DNA of 64,000 nt from a virus (IMGVR_UViG_3300005077_000026:21261-85260); one strand, 5' to 3'; shown: positions 19,474-28,042, numbered from the stretch's first letter. Program-made: numbers and translations. The notes: generated by a model not told the origin, from the letters alone.

Positions 19474-20118
19474 TTAGGCTCCTACTATTCCATCGAATAG
19501 GATTTTGTACAAATCAGGACGCTTGTTCCAAGCATCGTAGTGATCCTCAGGAGTCACTCCCTTCCACCCTTTACAGGTAGTGGAGCAATCATATCCCGTC
19601 TCCAATCCCGCAACTATGTCAAACTGTGCCCAGAGTTCAGAGCAGACTGGCCAATCACCATGTAGAGTAAAAGACGACCATCGGAAGGGAACGGGACGGC
19701 TGAGGACTTTCTTATAGAAAAACCCCCTGAGCATGTCGGTTGCTAAGAGGGCTATTCTTGGAGCGGGGTAAATCTGACCCACATTGTCTTCTACTTCTTT
19801 TATCCCAATAGCGTATAGATCAGAGGTGAGATGGAGATGGCGGGCTATGATGACCTGTTTTCCTATGTATTCTCTAAGGTGGGAATAACTGATTTTCCAC
19901 AAGGACTCTATTGTGGTTCCGTCTGTCACGAATAGTGGAAAGGAGGTCTTTACAAACCCCCCGATATGATTGATGGGACAAAGATCATCCCCCTCTAAAT
20001 TCTGCCCAAATCGAATCGCCCTCGAAAGCAACCCATCTGACTTTGTGCCAAATCGATCACCAGGAGACAGAAGTGGCAGAATTTCTGAAAGGGGGGTAGA
20101 GTTCATAATCAGCTCCAA
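19474..20118 (-). CDS. permuted papain-like NlpC/P60 amidase (YiiX/YaeF type)
   Basis: His (INHIGG) precedes Cys (VCSELW); LLPGDRF-like and IESL motifs. Confidence 0.65.
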   Translation of the reverse strand: MELIMNSTPLSEILPLLSPGDRFGTKSDGLLSRAIRFGQNLEGDDLCPINHIGGFVKTSFPLFVTDGTTIESLWKISYSHLREYIGKQVIIARHLHLTSDLYAIGIKEVEDNVGQIYPAPRIALLATDMLRGFFYKKVLSRPVPFRWSSFTLHGDWPVCSELWAQFDIVAGLETGYDCSTTCKGWKGVTPEDHYDAWNKRPDLYKILFDGIVGA

Positions 20119-21116
20119 TTTTTAGCCCATTGATGGATAGTCTGAACCTGCTGCGACTCTATTAACCTTCTGTGATCATTACATTTTATTTTAACATCAG
20201 TGAGCATATTTTGCAATACCTCACTCCTCCCCTTTGCATGTTTTGTAAACAATGCTGCCCAATCATCTCCCCCATATAAGTAGGCAGCGATTATTTTGTT
20301 TCTAACATAATCATCATAGATCCAATGGTAACCCCTTCTATCTCCATGATGAAACAGGGTGCCGTGGGGGAAAATCCATTTCTTCATTCCCAGCACCGCC
20401 ATCGTAAAGTTTAAAAAATTTTCTCCTCCCCCATAGATTCCCAACTCTTTTGGCCAACCCCCAAGCTTTGCCAGCTCCTCTCTGCCTATCATCACTCCAC
20501 AGCAACTCATGCAGGGGACTTCAAAGGGCTGTTCTTGGTGTCTATAGGGAGTAAAGGAATAAGCACATTCTCCTTGATCGGGGTTCCACACAAACTTGTA
20601 TATCAGTCTATGAGCTTCAAGCAGCTTGTAAGTAACGGGGAGATGCAAGGAGCCATTAAGGGTTGAACGTTCCTTCTCGTAGTGACAGAACATATCGAAG
20701 ATTGAGTTGCGACTCGGGATGCAGTGCCCATCGCTGAAAAAGAAGATATCCCCTTCCGCCTTCGCCACTGCATAGTTTTTTGCTTGCCAATGACTCAGCT
20801 TGTCCGAGTAGACCACATACTTCAACCAAGGGTTTATCCGAGAACAAGCTTTGACTACCTCCCCTCCCTTGTCTTTTACAAAGGGGTTTTTGAAGTGATC
20901 TAAAACCCCATTGATCACTTCCTTGCTCACACCAAGCTTTACAGCAGCAGCCTCTACCTCAGGCTCCCTTTGTCTTTCCACTTGCACACAATAATTATCC
21001 ACAGCAAGGATCTCAAAATCACATCTCCCCTGCAACTCCTGCGCTATGCTCTGAATAGTAGACTGAATAAGGGGATCCTCATTGACAAAGGGGATTATCA
21101 CCGAAAGCTTAGTCAT
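20109..21116 (-). CDS. glycosyltransferase family 2
   Basis: LSVIIPFVNE, AVDN, IFFFSDGH, LGGW, YGGGE. Confidence 0.85.
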   Translation of the reverse strand: MTKLSVIIPFVNEDPLIQSTIQSIAQELQGRCDFEILAVDNYCVQVERQREPEVEAAAVKLGVSKEVINGVLDHFKNPFVKDKGGEVVKACSRINPWLKYVVYSDKLSHWQAKNYAVAKAEGDIFFFSDGHCIPSRNSIFDMFCHYEKERSTLNGSLHLPVTYKLLEAHRLIYKFVWNPDQGECAYSFTPYRHQEQPFEVPCMSCCGVMIGREELAKLGGWPKELGIYGGGENFLNFTMAVLGMKKWIFPHGTLFHHGDRRGYHWIYDDYVRNKIIAAYLYGGDDWAALFTKHAKGRSEVLQNMLTDVKIKCNDHRRLIESQQVQTIHQWAKNWS

Positions 21117-22023
21117 TTTTTCGTCTTCTCCTTAGATTGGAAATGTAGGTTTTGCGCTTCTTTACAGGAGGGGCAGTCGTTGTGGTAGTCGAAGTGGTAG
21201 TGGTAGTCGAGGTAGTTGAAGTAGTGGTCAATACTGGGTCTTTGCTAAGGCAGATGGAATGCTGCCCACCTACAAGCATCTCCCCTTTTGACATCACAAA
21301 AGAAGTTCCAGACGCTTTGATGTTGAATCCCGCCAAGACTGCCATCCTATGCATCTGCATCAGCCCCACAACGAGACGGATAGCCCTGACTTTGGTTCCT
21401 TCCCCTCCCTCTCTGTACTGCACCTGCTGCCTGTTTTCTTCCGCAACATTGTCCATGTATTCTTTGAGGGTCTGCCTGTTCCTTGTTTTGCAGAGACGGG
21501 GGAAGTAGAGACGGGCAACCCCATTAGGACGCAGCTTCTTGTAAATCTCCCTCAAGTAAGCATCCAGAACATGAATGCCCTCAAAGCTACAGATTGTTAC
21601 CCAAGAGTAAATATAATCGAAATAGTTATCAGGGTACGGCAGCATCCCAGAGCCATCCACAGTGAGGGGGAAGCAACGCTTGGCCAGAGCCTGGCTGCGT
21701 CGAGTCCATTCAGGTCGAATAAAATAGAAACCCCTGTGAACATCGACCCCATGTGATTCCTCAAAATGCTTGGCAGCAGCAAACATCATGGCTCCACTAC
21801 CGTAGCCTATATCCAAGCATCTTGTCCTGTGTCTGATTAGTCCCTTGTCCAAGTCAAGAAACATGGAGTTAAAAATCTGTTCGGATTGAGTGAACACGGC
21901 ATTCGTATTCTCTCCCCCCTCAAAGAAGGTAAAGAATCGATCCCTGTTGCCCAATCTTGCGAGTTCTTCTACCTGATCTTTCCATCCTTTTACGGAACAA
22001 TTATACATGGCTAAGCCCTCCAA
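21109..22023 (-). CDS. class I SAM-dependent methyltransferase with a C-terminal Thr tract
   Basis: CLDIGYGSG, LPYPDNYFDYI, LRPNG; tail TTTSTTSTTTTTSTTTTTAPP. Confidence 0.8.
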   Translation of the reverse strand: MEGLAMYNCSVKGWKDQVEELARLGNRDRFFTFFEGGENTNAVFTQSEQIFNSMFLDLDKGLIRHRTRCLDIGYGSGAMMFAAAKHFEESHGVDVHRGFYFIRPEWTRRSQALAKRCFPLTVDGSGMLPYPDNYFDYIYSWVTICSFEGIHVLDAYLREIYKKLRPNGVARLYFPRLCKTRNRQTLKEYMDNVAEENRQQVQYREGGEGTKVRAIRLVVGLMQMHRMAVLAGFNIKASGTSFVMSKGEMLVGGQHSICLSKDPVLTTTSTTSTTTTTSTTTTTAPPVKKRKTYISNLRRRRKND

Positions 22024-26704: not shown

Positions 26705-27964
26705 CTATTTGTTGTGCAGAACAGCGTTCATCACAGGGGCGTAGTGCTGCATATAGAGGCTGTGCAGGTTGTAGCGTTGACGGCAGAAGGTTTTAGTCTG
26801 AAACATCTCATTCTCCTTCAACCTCCCAGCAATCACTTTTGCCACCTCTTGATAATACAACGGGTGAGGCTTTTCGAAGTTCACCTCGAATGACCCGAAT
26901 TCGAAATACAGGGCATTGTGCCCAGTTATTTCCAGCTGGTTATAGAGGCTGCGATTCAGAACCAAGAAGTTCCCTGCAAGAGCAGCCTCAGGAACCACCA
27001 GTCCGAAGCTCTCTTCCCTTGTGGGAAAGATGAACAGGTTGGACAAAAGGAAAATCTCGCTGATCATCTTGTGGGGAATCCCCACTTCGAATTCCTTCTT
27101 GATATCGGGAGTCCAGAGAACTTCCTTCTCCGTCAGACCCATGTCGGCTGCTTGCTTCTTATAAACCCCTATATCCTGTTTCTGTCTCTGGGTTGTTGCC
27201 CACTGAGCAGCCACGATCAAACACACCTTGAACCCCATCCCCTTCAAATAGCTGAATATTTCAATCACCTCCCCAACTCTTTTAGCGTGGAGCCTATCCA
27301 CACTCGCAGGAAGGAGCTGCAAGATATCAGCTTCCATTATTTGAGGGTTTTTGTTGACAAAATCTTTGGTGTCTTGAGAGAACTGAAAGTAGGTTGTGGG
27401 GTCTTTGATGTGAGGAATGATTCGGACATGGTCTGACCATCCATGATATTTTTCTGCAACCAGGGTCCTGTTCACTTCACAGGGGAAAACGATCTTGTTA
27501 TTTGGGCCCATCTGTTGAATACGCCACCAGTCGTGATCTGGACCCCCCGGCAGACTGTGGATCCAATGCAAGAATTGAACATTGGGCAGGCCGAATCCCA
27601 CCTTCTTGATTCCCAAGAAGTAGGGAAGATTCCATCCAGTAAAGATCCAATCGTGTGTAAACACCACTTTGTATTGAGCCAGCTCCTTTGTAAAAACGTC
27701 CACCGTTTTCTGCACTACGGGGCGGTGCTCTGGCTTCAATTCATTCTGGGATTTGTAATCGTGCAGATGGCAAAAGGGCACCATCTTCTTGATCGACATT
27801 CCCTCCGGCACGGGGTAGCTCTTTTCGTTAAAGTTCTCATTGACAAAGACATCTACCTGGTGCCCATGGTTGGTGAGCATTTGCCATTGGTCCTTAACGA
27901 TGCCCGTAAGACTGTACCCTGGGATGAACTCGCTAAAACTGGTGAGAATTGCAATCGGAAACAT
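26705..27964 (-). CDS. glycosyltransferase family 4
   Basis: HQVDV, FTHD, KRV, FIFPTREESFGLVVPEA (intact E-X7-E). Confidence 0.85.
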   Translation of the reverse strand: MFPIAILTSFSEFIPGYSLTGIVKDQWQMLTNHGHQVDVFVNENFNEKSYPVPEGMSIKKMVPFCHLHDYKSQNELKPEHRPVVQKTVDVFTKELAQYKVVFTHDWIFTGWNLPYFLGIKKVGFGLPNVQFLHWIHSLPGGPDHDWWRIQQMGPNNKIVFPCEVNRTLVAEKYHGWSDHVRIIPHIKDPTTYFQFSQDTKDFVNKNPQIMEADILQLLPASVDRLHAKRVGEVIEIFSYLKGMGFKVCLIVAAQWATTQRQKQDIGVYKKQAADMGLTEKEVLWTPDIKKEFEVGIPHKMISEIFLLSNLFIFPTREESFGLVVPEAALAGNFLVLNRSLYNQLEITGHNALYFEFGSFEVNFEKPHPLYYQEVAKVIAGRLKENEMFQTKTFCRQRYNLHSLYMQHYAPVMNAVLHNK

Positions 27965-28013
27965 TCGGATTCTCCTTTCCAAGAGATTGGGCTGTGCTTA
28001 CTGAATCTGATTC

Positions 28014-28042
28014 ATTTTGCAATATTTTATAAACTTTGTCAA
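28014..28042 (-). promoter_or_regulatory. sigma70-type promoter of the glycosylation cluster
   Basis: Minus strand: TTGACA (28042-28037), 17-nt spacer, CAAAAT (28019-28014). Confidence 0.65.

What the first reader, a model, noticed from the sequence alone, without database searches (positions are those of the whole stretch)
20109..28042. Probable phage-encoded virion O-glycosylation system: 9-enzyme glycan cluster in a genome whose structural proteins carry Thr/Ser acceptor tracts
Seen: five glycosyltransferases (2 GT-B, 3 GT-A), three SAM methyltransferases and one O-acetyltransferase are co-oriented directly after the tail-fibre gene, behind their own TTGACA-17-CAAAAT promoter. In the same late block six proteins carry near-pure Thr/Ser runs: capsid, tail tube, head closure, two fibres and one methyltransferase. 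No nucleotide-sugar synthase, flippase or oligosaccharyltransferase was recognised in the window. Known: some mycobacteriophages (Che8, Corndog, Myrna) O-glycosylate capsid or tail-tube proteins with their own GTs, and streptococcal serine-rich-repeat adhesins are glycosylated stepwise in the cytoplasm by GT4 then GT2/GT8 enzymes. Inference: this phage builds a methylated, acetylated O-glycan from host NDP-sugars and coats head, neck, tail and fibres through dedicated tags. That would be a more elaborate glycan shield than the known cases.
Basis: partly seen in the sequence, partly recalled or inferred. Interest (0 to 1): 0.92.

Follow-up and report, generated by a model that had tools for sequence, protein, structure and literature searches.

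The report
Phage cassette for sugar-coating its virion
An uncultured 85-kb phage carries a conserved nine-enzyme sugar-modifying gene cassette, started by an enzyme shaped like the animal enzymes that begin mucin glycosylation, and its capsid, tail tube and other virion proteins end in pure Ser/Thr tails, so it very probably sugar-coats its own particle, though no sugar has been measured.

Summary
Window 20109-27982 (minus strand) is a tight operon of five glycosyltransferases (2 GT-B, 3 GT-A), three methyltransferases and one XAT-class O-acetyltransferase. Six late proteins carry near-pure Ser/Thr tracts.

New here:
- The last gene (20109-21116) is specifically GT27-like, that is, like polypeptide GalNAc-transferases (VIA Z 26.9 against 19.3 for the next fold; DxH and GGGEN invariant).
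- The cluster is a conserved, essentially phage-restricted cassette: at least 77 viral contigs and 7 phage-sized MAG contigs among 185,579 species genomes.
- S/T-tract ORFs are enriched beside the cassette (47/77 loci against 4/47 control loci). They fall into 42 unrelated protein families.
- In this phage's capsid family, tags on capsid, tail tube and a YomX-like protein are all-or-none. They mark one clade, and the cassette is found only there.
- In three unrelated complete phages with the cassette, tails sit on major tail, adaptor and head proteins.

All enzymes are soluble. The genome has no nucleotide-sugar, flippase, Wzy or DNA-hydroxymethylation genes.

The "own promoter" claim is not supported. 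Untagged relatives carry other GT clusters, and poly-Thr phages often lack this cassette. This scan noted the same GT27-like enzyme on other phage DNA before. I found no paper describing it.

The parts
26705..27982 (-). GT-B glycosyltransferase (GT4-like), first gene of the cassette
   Evidence: Pfam Glyco_transf_4/Glycos_transf_1. Homologs at 37-53% identity lie beside the GT27-like gene in 60/77 viral loci. The profile hits only generic GT4 enzymes in the PDB.
25590..26696 (-). Second GT-B glycosyltransferase
   Evidence: Weak Glycos_transf_1. Conserved in 39/77 cassette loci.
24832..25593 (-). Weak GT2-type (GT-A) glycosyltransferase, accessory
   Evidence: PF00535 E 0.004. Found in 22/77 loci.
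24368..24877 (-). Hexapeptide-repeat O-acetyltransferase (XAT class), accessory
   Evidence: Hexapep 9e-12. Vat/CatB-like 3e-36 but far below the equivalog cut-offs. Found in 11/77 loci.
23760..24371 (-). Methyltransf_24 SAM methyltransferase, probable sugar O-methyltransferase, accessory
   Evidence: PF13578 1.7e-13. Found in 19/77 loci. The same family in relative G011 also hits rhamnosyl O-methyltransferase/CmcI.
23143..23772 (-). Class I methyltransferase-like protein, core of the cassette
   Evidence: Weak PF13489. Conserved in 43/77 loci at 30-53% identity.
22439..23167 (-). GT-A fold glycosyltransferase with an invariant E-D-D-W motif, core of the cassette
   Evidence: No Pfam, PHROG or NCBIfam hit. 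AF2 pLDDT 94.7. Foldseek finds SpsA, K4CP, TarP and GnT-I at E 1e-9 to 1e-7. Found in at least 42 of 77 loci, usually directly upstream of the GT27-like gene. Alignment A3.
22011..22457 (-). M15 peptidase endolysin with an N-terminal hydrophobic segment. It is embedded in the operon but is not part of the conserved cassette.
   Evidence: Peptidase_M15_4 and phrog_465 6e-51. A homolog is near the cassette in only 1/77 loci. KD19 maximum 1.96 at aa 26.
21109..22023 (-). Methyltransf_11 SAM methyltransferase that itself carries an S/T tract (aa 263-286), accessory
   Evidence: PF08241 7.9e-10. Tract seen. Found in 10/77 loci.
20109..21116 (-). GT27-like (polypeptide GalNAc-transferase-like) soluble GT-A enzyme, the proposed initiating peptide O-glycosyltransferase
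   Evidence: Profile A1 against the PDB: ppGalNAc-T10 is the top hit at 2.8e-5, followed by six more ppGalNAc-T isoforms. FxDxH aligns with FLDSHC and GGGEN with WGGE. AF2 pLDDT 94. The top 50 Foldseek hits are all GT27. VIA Z 26.9/25.8 for GalNAc-T1/TgGalNAc-T3, against 19.3 for the next fold. D129, H131, G230-G231-E232 and H256-H257 are invariant in 40 homologs; G229 is nearly invariant.
28014..28042 (-). Promoter-like TTGACA-17-CAAAAT match, not supported as functional
   Evidence: the site is present, but there are 8 sites in the region against 14.6 expected from shuffles.
43317..44645 (-). Major capsid protein (Phage_cap_E) with a 22-aa C-terminal S/T tail (aa 421-442), proposed acceptor
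   Evidence: Tail present in 19 distinct relatives forming one clade and absent in 38 others.
41720..42409 (-). YomX-like head/neck protein with a 27-aa C-terminal S/T tail, proposed acceptor
   Evidence: Tag state is concordant with the MCP in all loci. Structural relatives carry Big_2 Ig domains at the same end.
39423..40061 (-). Putative major tail (tube) protein with a 17-aa C-terminal S/T tail, proposed acceptor
   Evidence: It lies directly upstream of the tail assembly chaperone (phrog_1442) and the tape measure gene. Tail seen. Tag state concordant.
28548..31058 (-). 836-aa fibre-like protein with a 110-aa S/T tract (aa 681-790)
   Evidence: Homologs lie upstream of the cassette in L125, L131 and L157.
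46952..50287 (-). 1111-aa protein with 57% Ser+Thr (two ~300-aa tracts) in the head module, a mucin-like candidate acceptor
   Evidence: Its C-terminal domain is conserved next to cassettes in 10 loci.

Best explanation
Window 20109-27982 is a late-expressed, cytoplasmic protein O-glycosylation cassette that the phage uses on its own virion proteins.

Proposed mechanism:
1. The soluble GT27-like enzyme (20109-21116) transfers a first hexose or HexNAc from a host UDP-sugar onto Ser/Thr of the unstructured S/T tails and tracts. These are on the capsid, tail tube, YomX-like protein, fibre and the 1111-aa mucin-like protein.
2. The core GT4-like GT-B (26705-27982), the core GT-A (22439-23167) and the accessory GT-B and GT2 enzymes extend the glycan one sugar at a time.
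3. The three methyltransferases and the XAT-type acetyltransferase O-methylate and O-acetylate the sugars.
4. Assembly then displays hundreds of glycosylated tails on head, neck, tail and fibres. These occupy the positions where other phages display Ig-like domains.

Shown here: enzyme folds and motifs, cassette conservation, restriction to phages, tag/cassette co-occurrence, solubility, and absence of lipid-carrier and nucleotide-sugar genes.

Inferred: that the tails are the acceptors, which enzyme initiates, the sugar identities, the order of steps, and the benefit. The benefit could be protease or adsorption shielding, colloidal stability, or adhesion to polysaccharide matrices.
For: Enzyme fold and motifs:
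- The GT27-like fold is specific: VIA Z 26.9 (rmsd 2.8 A, 283 aa) and 25.8 against 19.3 for the next fold. All top 50 Foldseek hits are ppGalNAc-Ts. A profile-to-PDB search puts ppGalNAc-T10 first, with DxH and WGGE aligned.
- D129, H131, GGE230-232 and HH256-257 are invariant in 40 homologs.

Cassette conservation and range:
- Beside the 77 viral GT27-like loci, GT4 is present in 60, MT23 in 43, the GT-A in at least 42, GT-B in 39, and the others in 10-22. Gene order is kept.
- The same cassette occurs in 7 phage-sized MAG contigs, the only hits in 185,579 species genomes.
- Only one distant hit appears in 50,697 GenBank phage records.

Tags beside the cassette:
- S/T-tract ORFs occur in 47/77 cassette loci against 4/47 untagged-family control loci (Fisher p 2e-9). 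They are almost always on the cassette strand and often directly upstream.
- 13 more records have runs elsewhere in the genome.
- The 74 tagged ORFs fall into 42 unrelated families.
- All 7 cassette-bearing genomes that are at least 90% complete carry S/T runs; for five of them the carriers are virion proteins with S/T tails. None of the 5 complete cassette-free relatives has them.
- In unrelated complete genomes G098, G103 and G119 the tails sit on major tail protein, head-tail adaptor and head structural proteins.

Within the MCP family:
- Tags on three different proteins are perfectly concordant and are kept through about 50% sequence divergence in one clade.
- No untagged record has the GT27-like gene.

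Compartment:
- No TM segment is present in any enzyme.
- No NTP_transferase, Epimerase, Bac_transf or Wzy_C is present.
Against: - No glycan or mass shift has been measured, and the phage is uncultured.
- Structural likeness to GT27 does not prove a peptide acceptor.
- Within the capsid family the tags arose once, so the concordance there is a single event.
- Untagged relatives (G011, G013, G014, G015, G017) also carry GT/methyltransferase clusters in their structural modules. GT genes as such therefore do not predict tags.
- Only 2-3 of 28 viral records with a 9xThr run carry the GT27-like gene, so S/T runs exist without this cassette.
- 17 of 77 cassette records show no S/T run. They are mostly 13-74% complete, and the strict DNA pattern gives false negatives, for example G100.
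- The cultured distant relative Tunturi_4 has a DxH/GGE glycosyltransferase but no S/T tails.
Confidence: 0.72

Rival explanations
1. The cassette builds or alters a non-protein glycoconjugate during infection, such as a host envelope polysaccharide, a teichoic-acid-like polymer or a small molecule. On this view the S/T tracts are unmodified flexible linkers or 'hairs'.
For: GT4, GT2, Methyltransf_24 and hexapeptide acetyltransferases are typical of polysaccharide loci. An endolysin sits inside the operon. Untagged relatives carry other GT clusters. Many poly-Thr phages lack the cassette.
Against: No initiating phosphoglycosyl transferase, flippase or Wzy/ligase is present, and no enzyme has a TM segment. 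The family is virtually absent from cellular genomes. The cassette sits in the late virion block next to S/T-tagged ORFs from 42 unrelated families. The best structural relatives are peptide-acting enzymes. The endolysin is not a conserved cassette member (1/77 loci).
Confidence: 0.12
2. Only the long mucin-like tracts of fibres and the 1111-aa protein are glycosylated. The short C-terminal tails on capsid, tube and neck are unrelated spacers or assembly elements, or the first sugar is added by a host enzyme and the cassette only elaborates it.
For: Many cassette loci carry giant internal S/T tracts rather than short tails. Earlier notes from this scan on other genomes stress fibres. The host is unknown, so host O-GTs cannot be excluded.
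Against: In this capsid family the three short tails are all-or-none and are found only in the clade that has the cassette. In G103, G119 and G098 short tails on tail tube, adaptor and head proteins accompany the cassette. A terminal tail connects nothing, so 'linker' does not explain it.
Confidence: 0.1
3. The glycosyltransferases hypermodify the phage DNA, as T4-like and 5hmC/5hmU-glycosylating phages do.
For: Phage GT clusters that glycosylate DNA are known (bioRxiv 10.1101/2023.12.21.572611, found). This phage clearly invests in DNA modification (QueC genes).
Against: No thymidylate-synthase-type hydroxymethylase was found; the Tet/JBP search also found nothing, but its controls did not ring, so that test is uninformative. 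The DNA-modification genes present belong to a separate 7-deazaguanine (Gat-QueC/radical SAM) module in the early region. The cassette lies in the late structural block and tracks S/T tags.
Confidence: 0.03

Closest known systems
Mycobacteriophage virion glycosylation (Che8, Rita, Corndog, Myrna; Freeman et al. 2023, Cell Host Microbe 31:1216, cited via PMC12363180 and PMC11256854)
   Same: Phage-encoded glycosyltransferases modify the phage's own capsid and tail proteins in the host cytoplasm and produce a glycan coat.
   Different: The enzymes are different. tblastn of the GT4-like and GT27-like proteins against 50,697 GenBank phage records, which are expected to include these mycobacteriophages, gave no hit and one distant non-mycobacterial hit respectively. 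Here the system is a 5-9 gene cassette with methyl- and acetyltransferases, a GT27-like candidate initiator, explicit pure S/T tails on at least three proteins plus mucin-like giants, and an environmental, non-actinobacterial setting. The Freeman paper itself was not held, so its acceptor-site details could not be compared.
Eukaryotic UDP-GalNAc:polypeptide N-acetylgalactosaminyltransferases (CAZy GT27; GalNAc-T1, -T2, -T10, TgGalNAc-T3)
   Same: Closest fold by a clear margin (Z 26.9 against 19.3), with the DxH metal motif and a WGGE-like GGGEN motif aligned. The presumed acceptors are dense Ser/Thr tracts, as in mucins.
   Different: Only 12-17% identity. No ricin-type lectin domain, no signal anchor and no Golgi context; the phage protein is 335 aa and soluble. 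Donor sugar and peptide activity are untested. The family is phage-restricted.
Serine-rich-repeat adhesin glycosylation in streptococci and staphylococci (GtfA/GtfB, then Gtf3/GT2/GT8 enzymes)
   Same: Stepwise cytoplasmic O-glycosylation of long Ser/Thr-rich tracts by soluble GT-B and then GT-A enzymes using host UDP-sugars.
   Different: No detectable sequence relation to GtfA/B: the profile of the GT4-like protein hits only generic GT4 enzymes such as BshA at E 2e-3. There is no accessory Sec system. The substrates are virion proteins.
Virus-encoded glycosylation of giant-virus particles (chlorovirus PBCV-1 capsid glycans; Mimivirus fibril glycan gene clusters).
   Same: Viral gene clusters combine glycosyltransferases with sugar methyl- and acetyl-transferases and decorate structural proteins without the host ER/Golgi pathway.
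   Different: These are eukaryotic viruses. The linkages differ (N-linked atypical sequons in PBCV-1), they also encode nucleotide-sugar synthesis, and no homology was tested here.

Membership tests
CAZy GT27 polypeptide GalNAc-transferases | GT-A catalytic domain specifically of GT27 type | tested here: met
   VIA-align wide: GalNAc-T1 Z 26.9 (283 aa, 2.8 A) and TgGalNAc-T3 Z 25.8; the next fold (K4CP) scores 19.3. Foldseek top 50 are all GT27. The profile search's top PDB hits are GT27.
CAZy GT27 polypeptide GalNAc-transferases | DxH Mn2+ motif and Gal/GalNAc-T (WGGE) motif | tested here: met
   FxD129xH131 aligns with FLDSHC, and G229-G-G-E232-N with WGGE. D129, H131 and G230-G231-E232 are invariant in 40 homologs; G229 is nearly invariant. 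The third His ligand is plausibly H256/H257 but was not aligned.
CAZy GT27 polypeptide GalNAc-transferases | C-terminal ricin-type lectin domain and type II membrane anchor | tested here: not met
   The protein is 335 aa and the model is a single domain. There is no hydrophobic segment (KD19 maximum 0.98). PDB alignments cover only the catalytic domain.
CAZy GT27 polypeptide GalNAc-transferases | Transfers GalNAc from UDP-GalNAc to peptide Ser/Thr | not testable with these tools
   Needs an enzyme assay.
Mycobacteriophage-type virion glycosylation (Freeman 2023) | Phage-encoded GTs homologous to Che8 gp108-110 / Corndog gp38 | tested here: not met
   tblastn of the GT4-like and GT27-like proteins against 50,697 GenBank phage records gave none and one distant Acidobacteria-phage hit respectively. 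The other three GTs were not searched.
Mycobacteriophage-type virion glycosylation (Freeman 2023) | Glycans covalently attached to capsid and tail-tube subunits | not testable with these tools
   Only acceptor-like S/T tails on these proteins can be shown.
Lipid-carrier (Wzx/Wzy or OTase) polysaccharide or en-bloc glycosylation pathway | Initiating phosphoglycosyl transferase, flippase, polymerase/ligase or OTase, and membrane-bound enzymes | tested here: not met
   Bac_transf and Wzy_C are absent from the whole genome although the controls ring. No TM-like segment is present in any cassette enzyme. Flippase and STT3 families were not searched separately.
Phage DNA glycosylation (T4-type or 5hmC/5hmU-glycan systems) | Hydroxymethyl-pyrimidine synthesis (dCMP/dUMP hydroxymethylase or TET/JBP) together with DNA GTs | tested here: inconclusive
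   The Thymidylat_synt family is absent while the controls ring. Tet_JBP is absent but its controls did not ring.

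The most novel reading that the evidence does not exclude
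A phage-restricted, mobile 'mucin-type' O-glycosylation cassette is spread across many unrelated tailed-phage lineages of sediments and other environments. Its core is a GT27-like initiator, a GT4-like GT-B and a novel GT-A, with optional methyl- and acetyl-transferases. It glycosylates portable poly-Ser/Thr tags that phages have appended independently to dozens of unrelated virion proteins. The GT27-like enzyme would be the first prokaryotic-virus counterpart of the animal enzymes that initiate mucin glycosylation, and it could bear on where that enzyme family came from.
Probability: 0.45. Interest if true: 0.88.

Novelty: new variant of a known kind. Interest (0 to 1): 0.78.

Why it matters
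Virion glycosylation in phages has been shown experimentally only for a few mycobacteriophages. If this finding holds, it shows three things:
- A different and much more elaborate enzymology exists, with a GT27-like initiator.
- It comes with a simple, portable acceptor tag that works on capsid, neck, tail and fibre proteins.
- It is widespread in uncultured phages.

That would change how virion surfaces are modelled: mass, charge, adsorption, protease and antibody resistance, and sticking to mucus or biofilm matrices. It would also offer a compact cytoplasmic tag-plus-enzyme system for glycoengineering in bacteria. It raises the question of how the animal mucin-initiating enzymes relate to this viral family. 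The tag/enzyme pair is directly testable in E. coli without culturing the phage.

Tried and rejected
- Nucleotide search of the cluster against GenBank phages found no match. tblastn of the GT4-like protein found none. The MCP gave only two remote hits.
- PHROG and Pfam gave nothing for the tail tube, the YomX-like protein or most tagged ORFs of other loci.
- Sequence-only PDB searches of the two GT-B enzymes and of the GT-A profile were uninformative.
- Reverse test, from poly-Thr to the cassette: of 28 viral records with a 9xThr codon run, only 2-3 carry the GT27-like gene. S/T runs are therefore not specific to this cassette. Earlier scan notes suggest other GT families serve other phage groups; this was not tested here.
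- A strict DNA pattern (10xWCN, 0 mismatches) under-calls tags because it misses AGY serine codons. The complete genome G100 scored 0 yet has tails on capsid, YomX-like protein and tube.
- 'Own promoter': not above chance.
- 'GTs in general co-occur with tags': rejected. Untagged relatives have other GT clusters.
- Multiple independent tag gains inside the capsid family: rejected. There is one clade (quick tree; the careful search did not finish).
- DNA glycosylation: no supporting genes. The TGT/DpdA search was also empty.
- Freeman et al. 2023 is not held in the library.

Full report
**What is there**

The window is bases 21261-85260 of an 85,260-bp viral record rated 99% complete. Its minus strand from about 55 kb down to 19 kb is one late block: terminase, portal, capsid, head-tail genes, tail tube, chaperone, tape measure and fibres. 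The finding's region follows.

Window 20109-27982 holds ten tightly packed or overlapping ORFs. By Pfam, PHROG and NCBIfam and by structure prediction they are:
- a GT4-like GT-B (26705-27982)
- a second GT-B (25590-26696)
- a weak GT2 (24832-25593)
- a XAT-class hexapeptide O-acetyltransferase (24368-24877)
- a Methyltransf_24 enzyme (23760-24371)
- a weak class I methyltransferase (23143-23772)
- an unannotatable protein that folds as a GT-A glycosyltransferase with an invariant EDDW motif (22439-23167)
- an M15 endolysin (22011-22457)
- a Methyltransf_11 enzyme (21109-22023)
- a GT2-type enzyme (20109-21116)

The embedded endolysin was overlooked.

The six Ser/Thr tracts are real:
- C-terminal tails of 22 aa on the major capsid protein, 27 aa on a YomX-like protein and 17 aa on the presumed tail tube protein
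- a 110-aa tract in the 836-aa fibre
- two tracts of about 300 aa in a 1111-aa protein that is 57% Ser+Thr
- a 24-aa tract in one methyltransferase

The TTGACA-17-CAAAAT match exists, but promoter-like sites in the region are fewer than in shuffled sequence.

**The last gene is specifically like peptide GalNAc-transferases**

- The protein has more than 550 homologs at about 50% identity in metagenomes.
- In an alignment of 40 of them, FxD129xH131, G-G-E232 (G229 nearly invariant) and H256-H257 are invariant.
- A profile of that alignment finds ppGalNAc-T10 as the best PDB sequence (E 2.8e-5), followed by T4, T9, T7, T12, T1 and T2. The DxH motif aligns to FLDSHC and GGGEN aligns to WGGE.
- The AlphaFold model (pLDDT 94) gives only ppGalNAc-Ts in the top 50 Foldseek hits (E about 1e-14).
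- An aligner that does not depend on Foldseek puts GalNAc-T1 at Z 26.9 and Toxoplasma GalNAc-T3 at Z 25.8. All other GT-A enzymes score 19.3 or less.

The protein lacks the lectin domain and membrane anchor of the animal enzymes. It is GT27-like, not a demonstrated member.

**The cluster is a conserved, phage-restricted cassette**

Seventy-seven viral contigs of 10-277 kb carry a homolog of the GT27-like gene. Next to it, in conserved order, lie homologs of the window's other genes:
- GT4-like gene: 60 loci
- weak methyltransferase: 43 loci
- GT-A: at least 42 loci
- second GT-B: 39 loci
- GT2: 22 loci
- Methyltransf_24: 19 loci
- acetyltransferase: 11 loci
- Methyltransf_11: 10 loci
- endolysin: only 1 locus

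A minimal form, GT4 then GT-A then GT27-like, occurs in one MAG contig (L321). Among one genome for each of 185,579 prokaryote species, only 7 contigs have the gene. All are phage-sized MAG contigs with the same cassette. Among 50,697 GenBank phage records there is a single distant hit. No paper describing such a cassette turned up.

**Do the tags go with the cassette?**

Within plus or minus 10 kb of the GT27-like gene, 47 of 77 loci contain at least one ORF with an S/T tract (68 ORFs in 1.37 Mb). Nearly all are on the cassette strand and many lie directly upstream of the first GT. In loci of the same capsid family that lack tags, the figure is 4 of 47 (4 ORFs in 0.57 Mb). Fisher p is 2e-9.

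Of the 30 loci without a nearby tract, 13 have strict S/T codon runs elsewhere in the record. The one complete genome that seemed to be an exception (G100) turned out to have tails on capsid, YomX-like protein and tube.

After masking the tracts, the 74 tagged ORFs fall into 42 unrelated sequence families. Tags were therefore appended many times to different proteins.

Three complete cassette genomes (G098, G103, G119) have no detectable similarity to this phage's structural genes. In them the C-terminal tails sit on major tail protein (phrog_807, N-terminal tube part only), head-tail adaptor Ad1, a head structural protein and others.

The tails have a common look across lineages: a Thr-dominated run capped by A/V/G/E and often P or A.

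**The capsid family as a natural experiment**

Seventy-four capsid relatives were found.
- The capsids either end one or two residues after a conserved ...DV/...TV motif or carry a 15-39-aa S/T tail.
- Wherever the neighbouring genes are on the contig, the YomX-like protein and the tube protein have the same state as the capsid, without exception.
- On a capsid tree the 19 tagged sequences form one clade (SH-aLRT 100, quick tree) nested among untagged ones. This is a single gain that has been maintained down to about 50% identity.
- None of about 45 untagged records, including five complete genomes, has the GT27-like gene.
- The tagged near-complete genomes G000, G001 and G100 have it. G001's contig breaks inside the cassette; compare its near-twin L187.
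- Tagged G002 ends exactly at the GT4-like gene.

Counting genomes that are at least 90% complete, 7 of 7 with the cassette carry S/T runs (tails on virion proteins in five of them), and 0 of 5 without it do (p 0.0013, not phylogenetically corrected).

**Compartment and alternatives**

- No cassette enzyme has a TM-like segment.
- The whole genome lacks nucleotidyl-transferase, epimerase, phosphoglycosyl-transferase and Wzy/ligase families, and the control genomes rang for each search. This fits stepwise cytoplasmic glycosylation from host nucleotide sugars. It does not fit a lipid-carrier pathway.
- DNA glycosylation is unlikely. No hydroxymethylase was found. The phage's DNA-modification genes form a separate early module: Gat-QueC with an intein, a second QueC and a radical SAM enzyme.
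- The YomX-like protein's structural relatives carry Ig-like Big_2 domains at the C-terminus. The tagged tube proteins in G098, G103 and L125 match 'major tail protein with Ig-like domain'; in G098 and G103 only the N-terminal part matches. The tails therefore occupy positions where other phages display surface domains. That they are surface-exposed is my inference.

**What weakens the case**

- Nothing here shows a sugar on a protein.
- Untagged relatives also carry GT/methyltransferase clusters inside their structural modules. G011 has a GT-B/GT9 fusion, a GT2, two radical SAM enzymes and three methyltransferases between the YomX-like gene and the next head-tail gene. Their target is unexplained.
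- Only 2-3 of 28 poly-Thr-bearing viral records have this cassette.
- The cultured phage Tunturi_4 has a distant DxH/GGE glycosyltransferase between terminase and portal but no S/T tails.
- Which enzyme initiates is an inference. The GT27-like enzyme rather than the GT4-like enzyme is about even odds on its own.

**Verdict**

The system works like the virion glycosylation known from mycobacteriophages, but its enzymes are unrelated to those tested, it has an explicit portable tag, and its tailoring set is larger. I rate it a new variant of a known kind.

This scan had already noted the same GT27-like enzyme on other phage genomes (e1-3539470, e1-5940867, e1-5940882) and poly-Thr tags with other GT families elsewhere. 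Those notes were leads only.

Noticed in passing
G000:16537-21356 (just upstream of and overlapping window 1-96); loci L196:16537-19922 and L197:1448-2356: A 7-deazaguanine-type DNA-modification module: a 721-aa glutamine-amidotransferase + QueC fusion interrupted by an intein (Intein_splicing/HINT, aa ~440-586), a second QueC-like gene and a radical SAM (QueE-like) gene. No TGT/DpdA was found by Pfam.
   Followed up: partly
window 2240-4840 (+): Family A DNA polymerase with an N-terminal uracil-DNA-glycosylase-superfamily domain fused to the 3'-5' exonuclease and polymerase domains.
   Followed up: no
window 22011-22457 (-): An M15 endolysin with an N-terminal hydrophobic segment (possible signal-anchor-release type) is inserted in the middle of the glycosylation operon and overlaps both neighbours. 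This placement is not seen in other cassette loci.
   Followed up: partly
G011 = L092:6162-14867; G013 = L094:12858-19008: Untagged relatives carry a different 7-10-gene cluster wedged between the YomX-like gene and the next head-tail gene: a GT-B/GT9 fusion, a GT2, two radical SAM/SPASM enzymes, two Methyltransf_24 (CmcI/rhamnosyl-O-MT-like) enzymes and a class I MT. Its target is unknown.
   Followed up: partly
L070 (homolog of window 41720-42409): In one untagged relative the YomX-like protein ends in a Ser/Pro repeat tail (SSPSPSSSPSPS...) instead of an S/T tail.
   Followed up: no
window 56001-58000: A sharp GC trough (0.33 against about 0.47 elsewhere) with almost no ORFs of 60 aa or more between 55.7 and 57.5 kb, at the junction of the late and early blocks. 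Other first-reader notes flag GG/CC depletion here.
   Followed up: no
L341 (PP885687.1 1567-2565): The cultured Tunturiibacter (Acidobacteria) phage Tunturi_4 encodes a distant relative of the GT27-like enzyme (22.8% identity, DNH and GGE motifs) between terminase and portal. Its capsid and tail proteins have no S/T tails.
   Followed up: partly
L316-L322: The 7 cellular-genome hits are phage-sized MAG contigs binned as Desulfobacteraceae or Deltaproteobacteria (4), Proteobacteria, Thermoplasmatota and Thorarchaeota. They are probably mis-binned phages and give only a weak host hint.
   Followed up: partly
L187:12590-17246 against 8570-10936; G001:1-4164: In the G001/L187 lineage the cassette is split. 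The GT-A and GT27-like genes are on one strand, and the GT4, GT2, GT-B, AcT, MT24 and MT23 genes are on the opposite strand just downstream.
   Followed up: no
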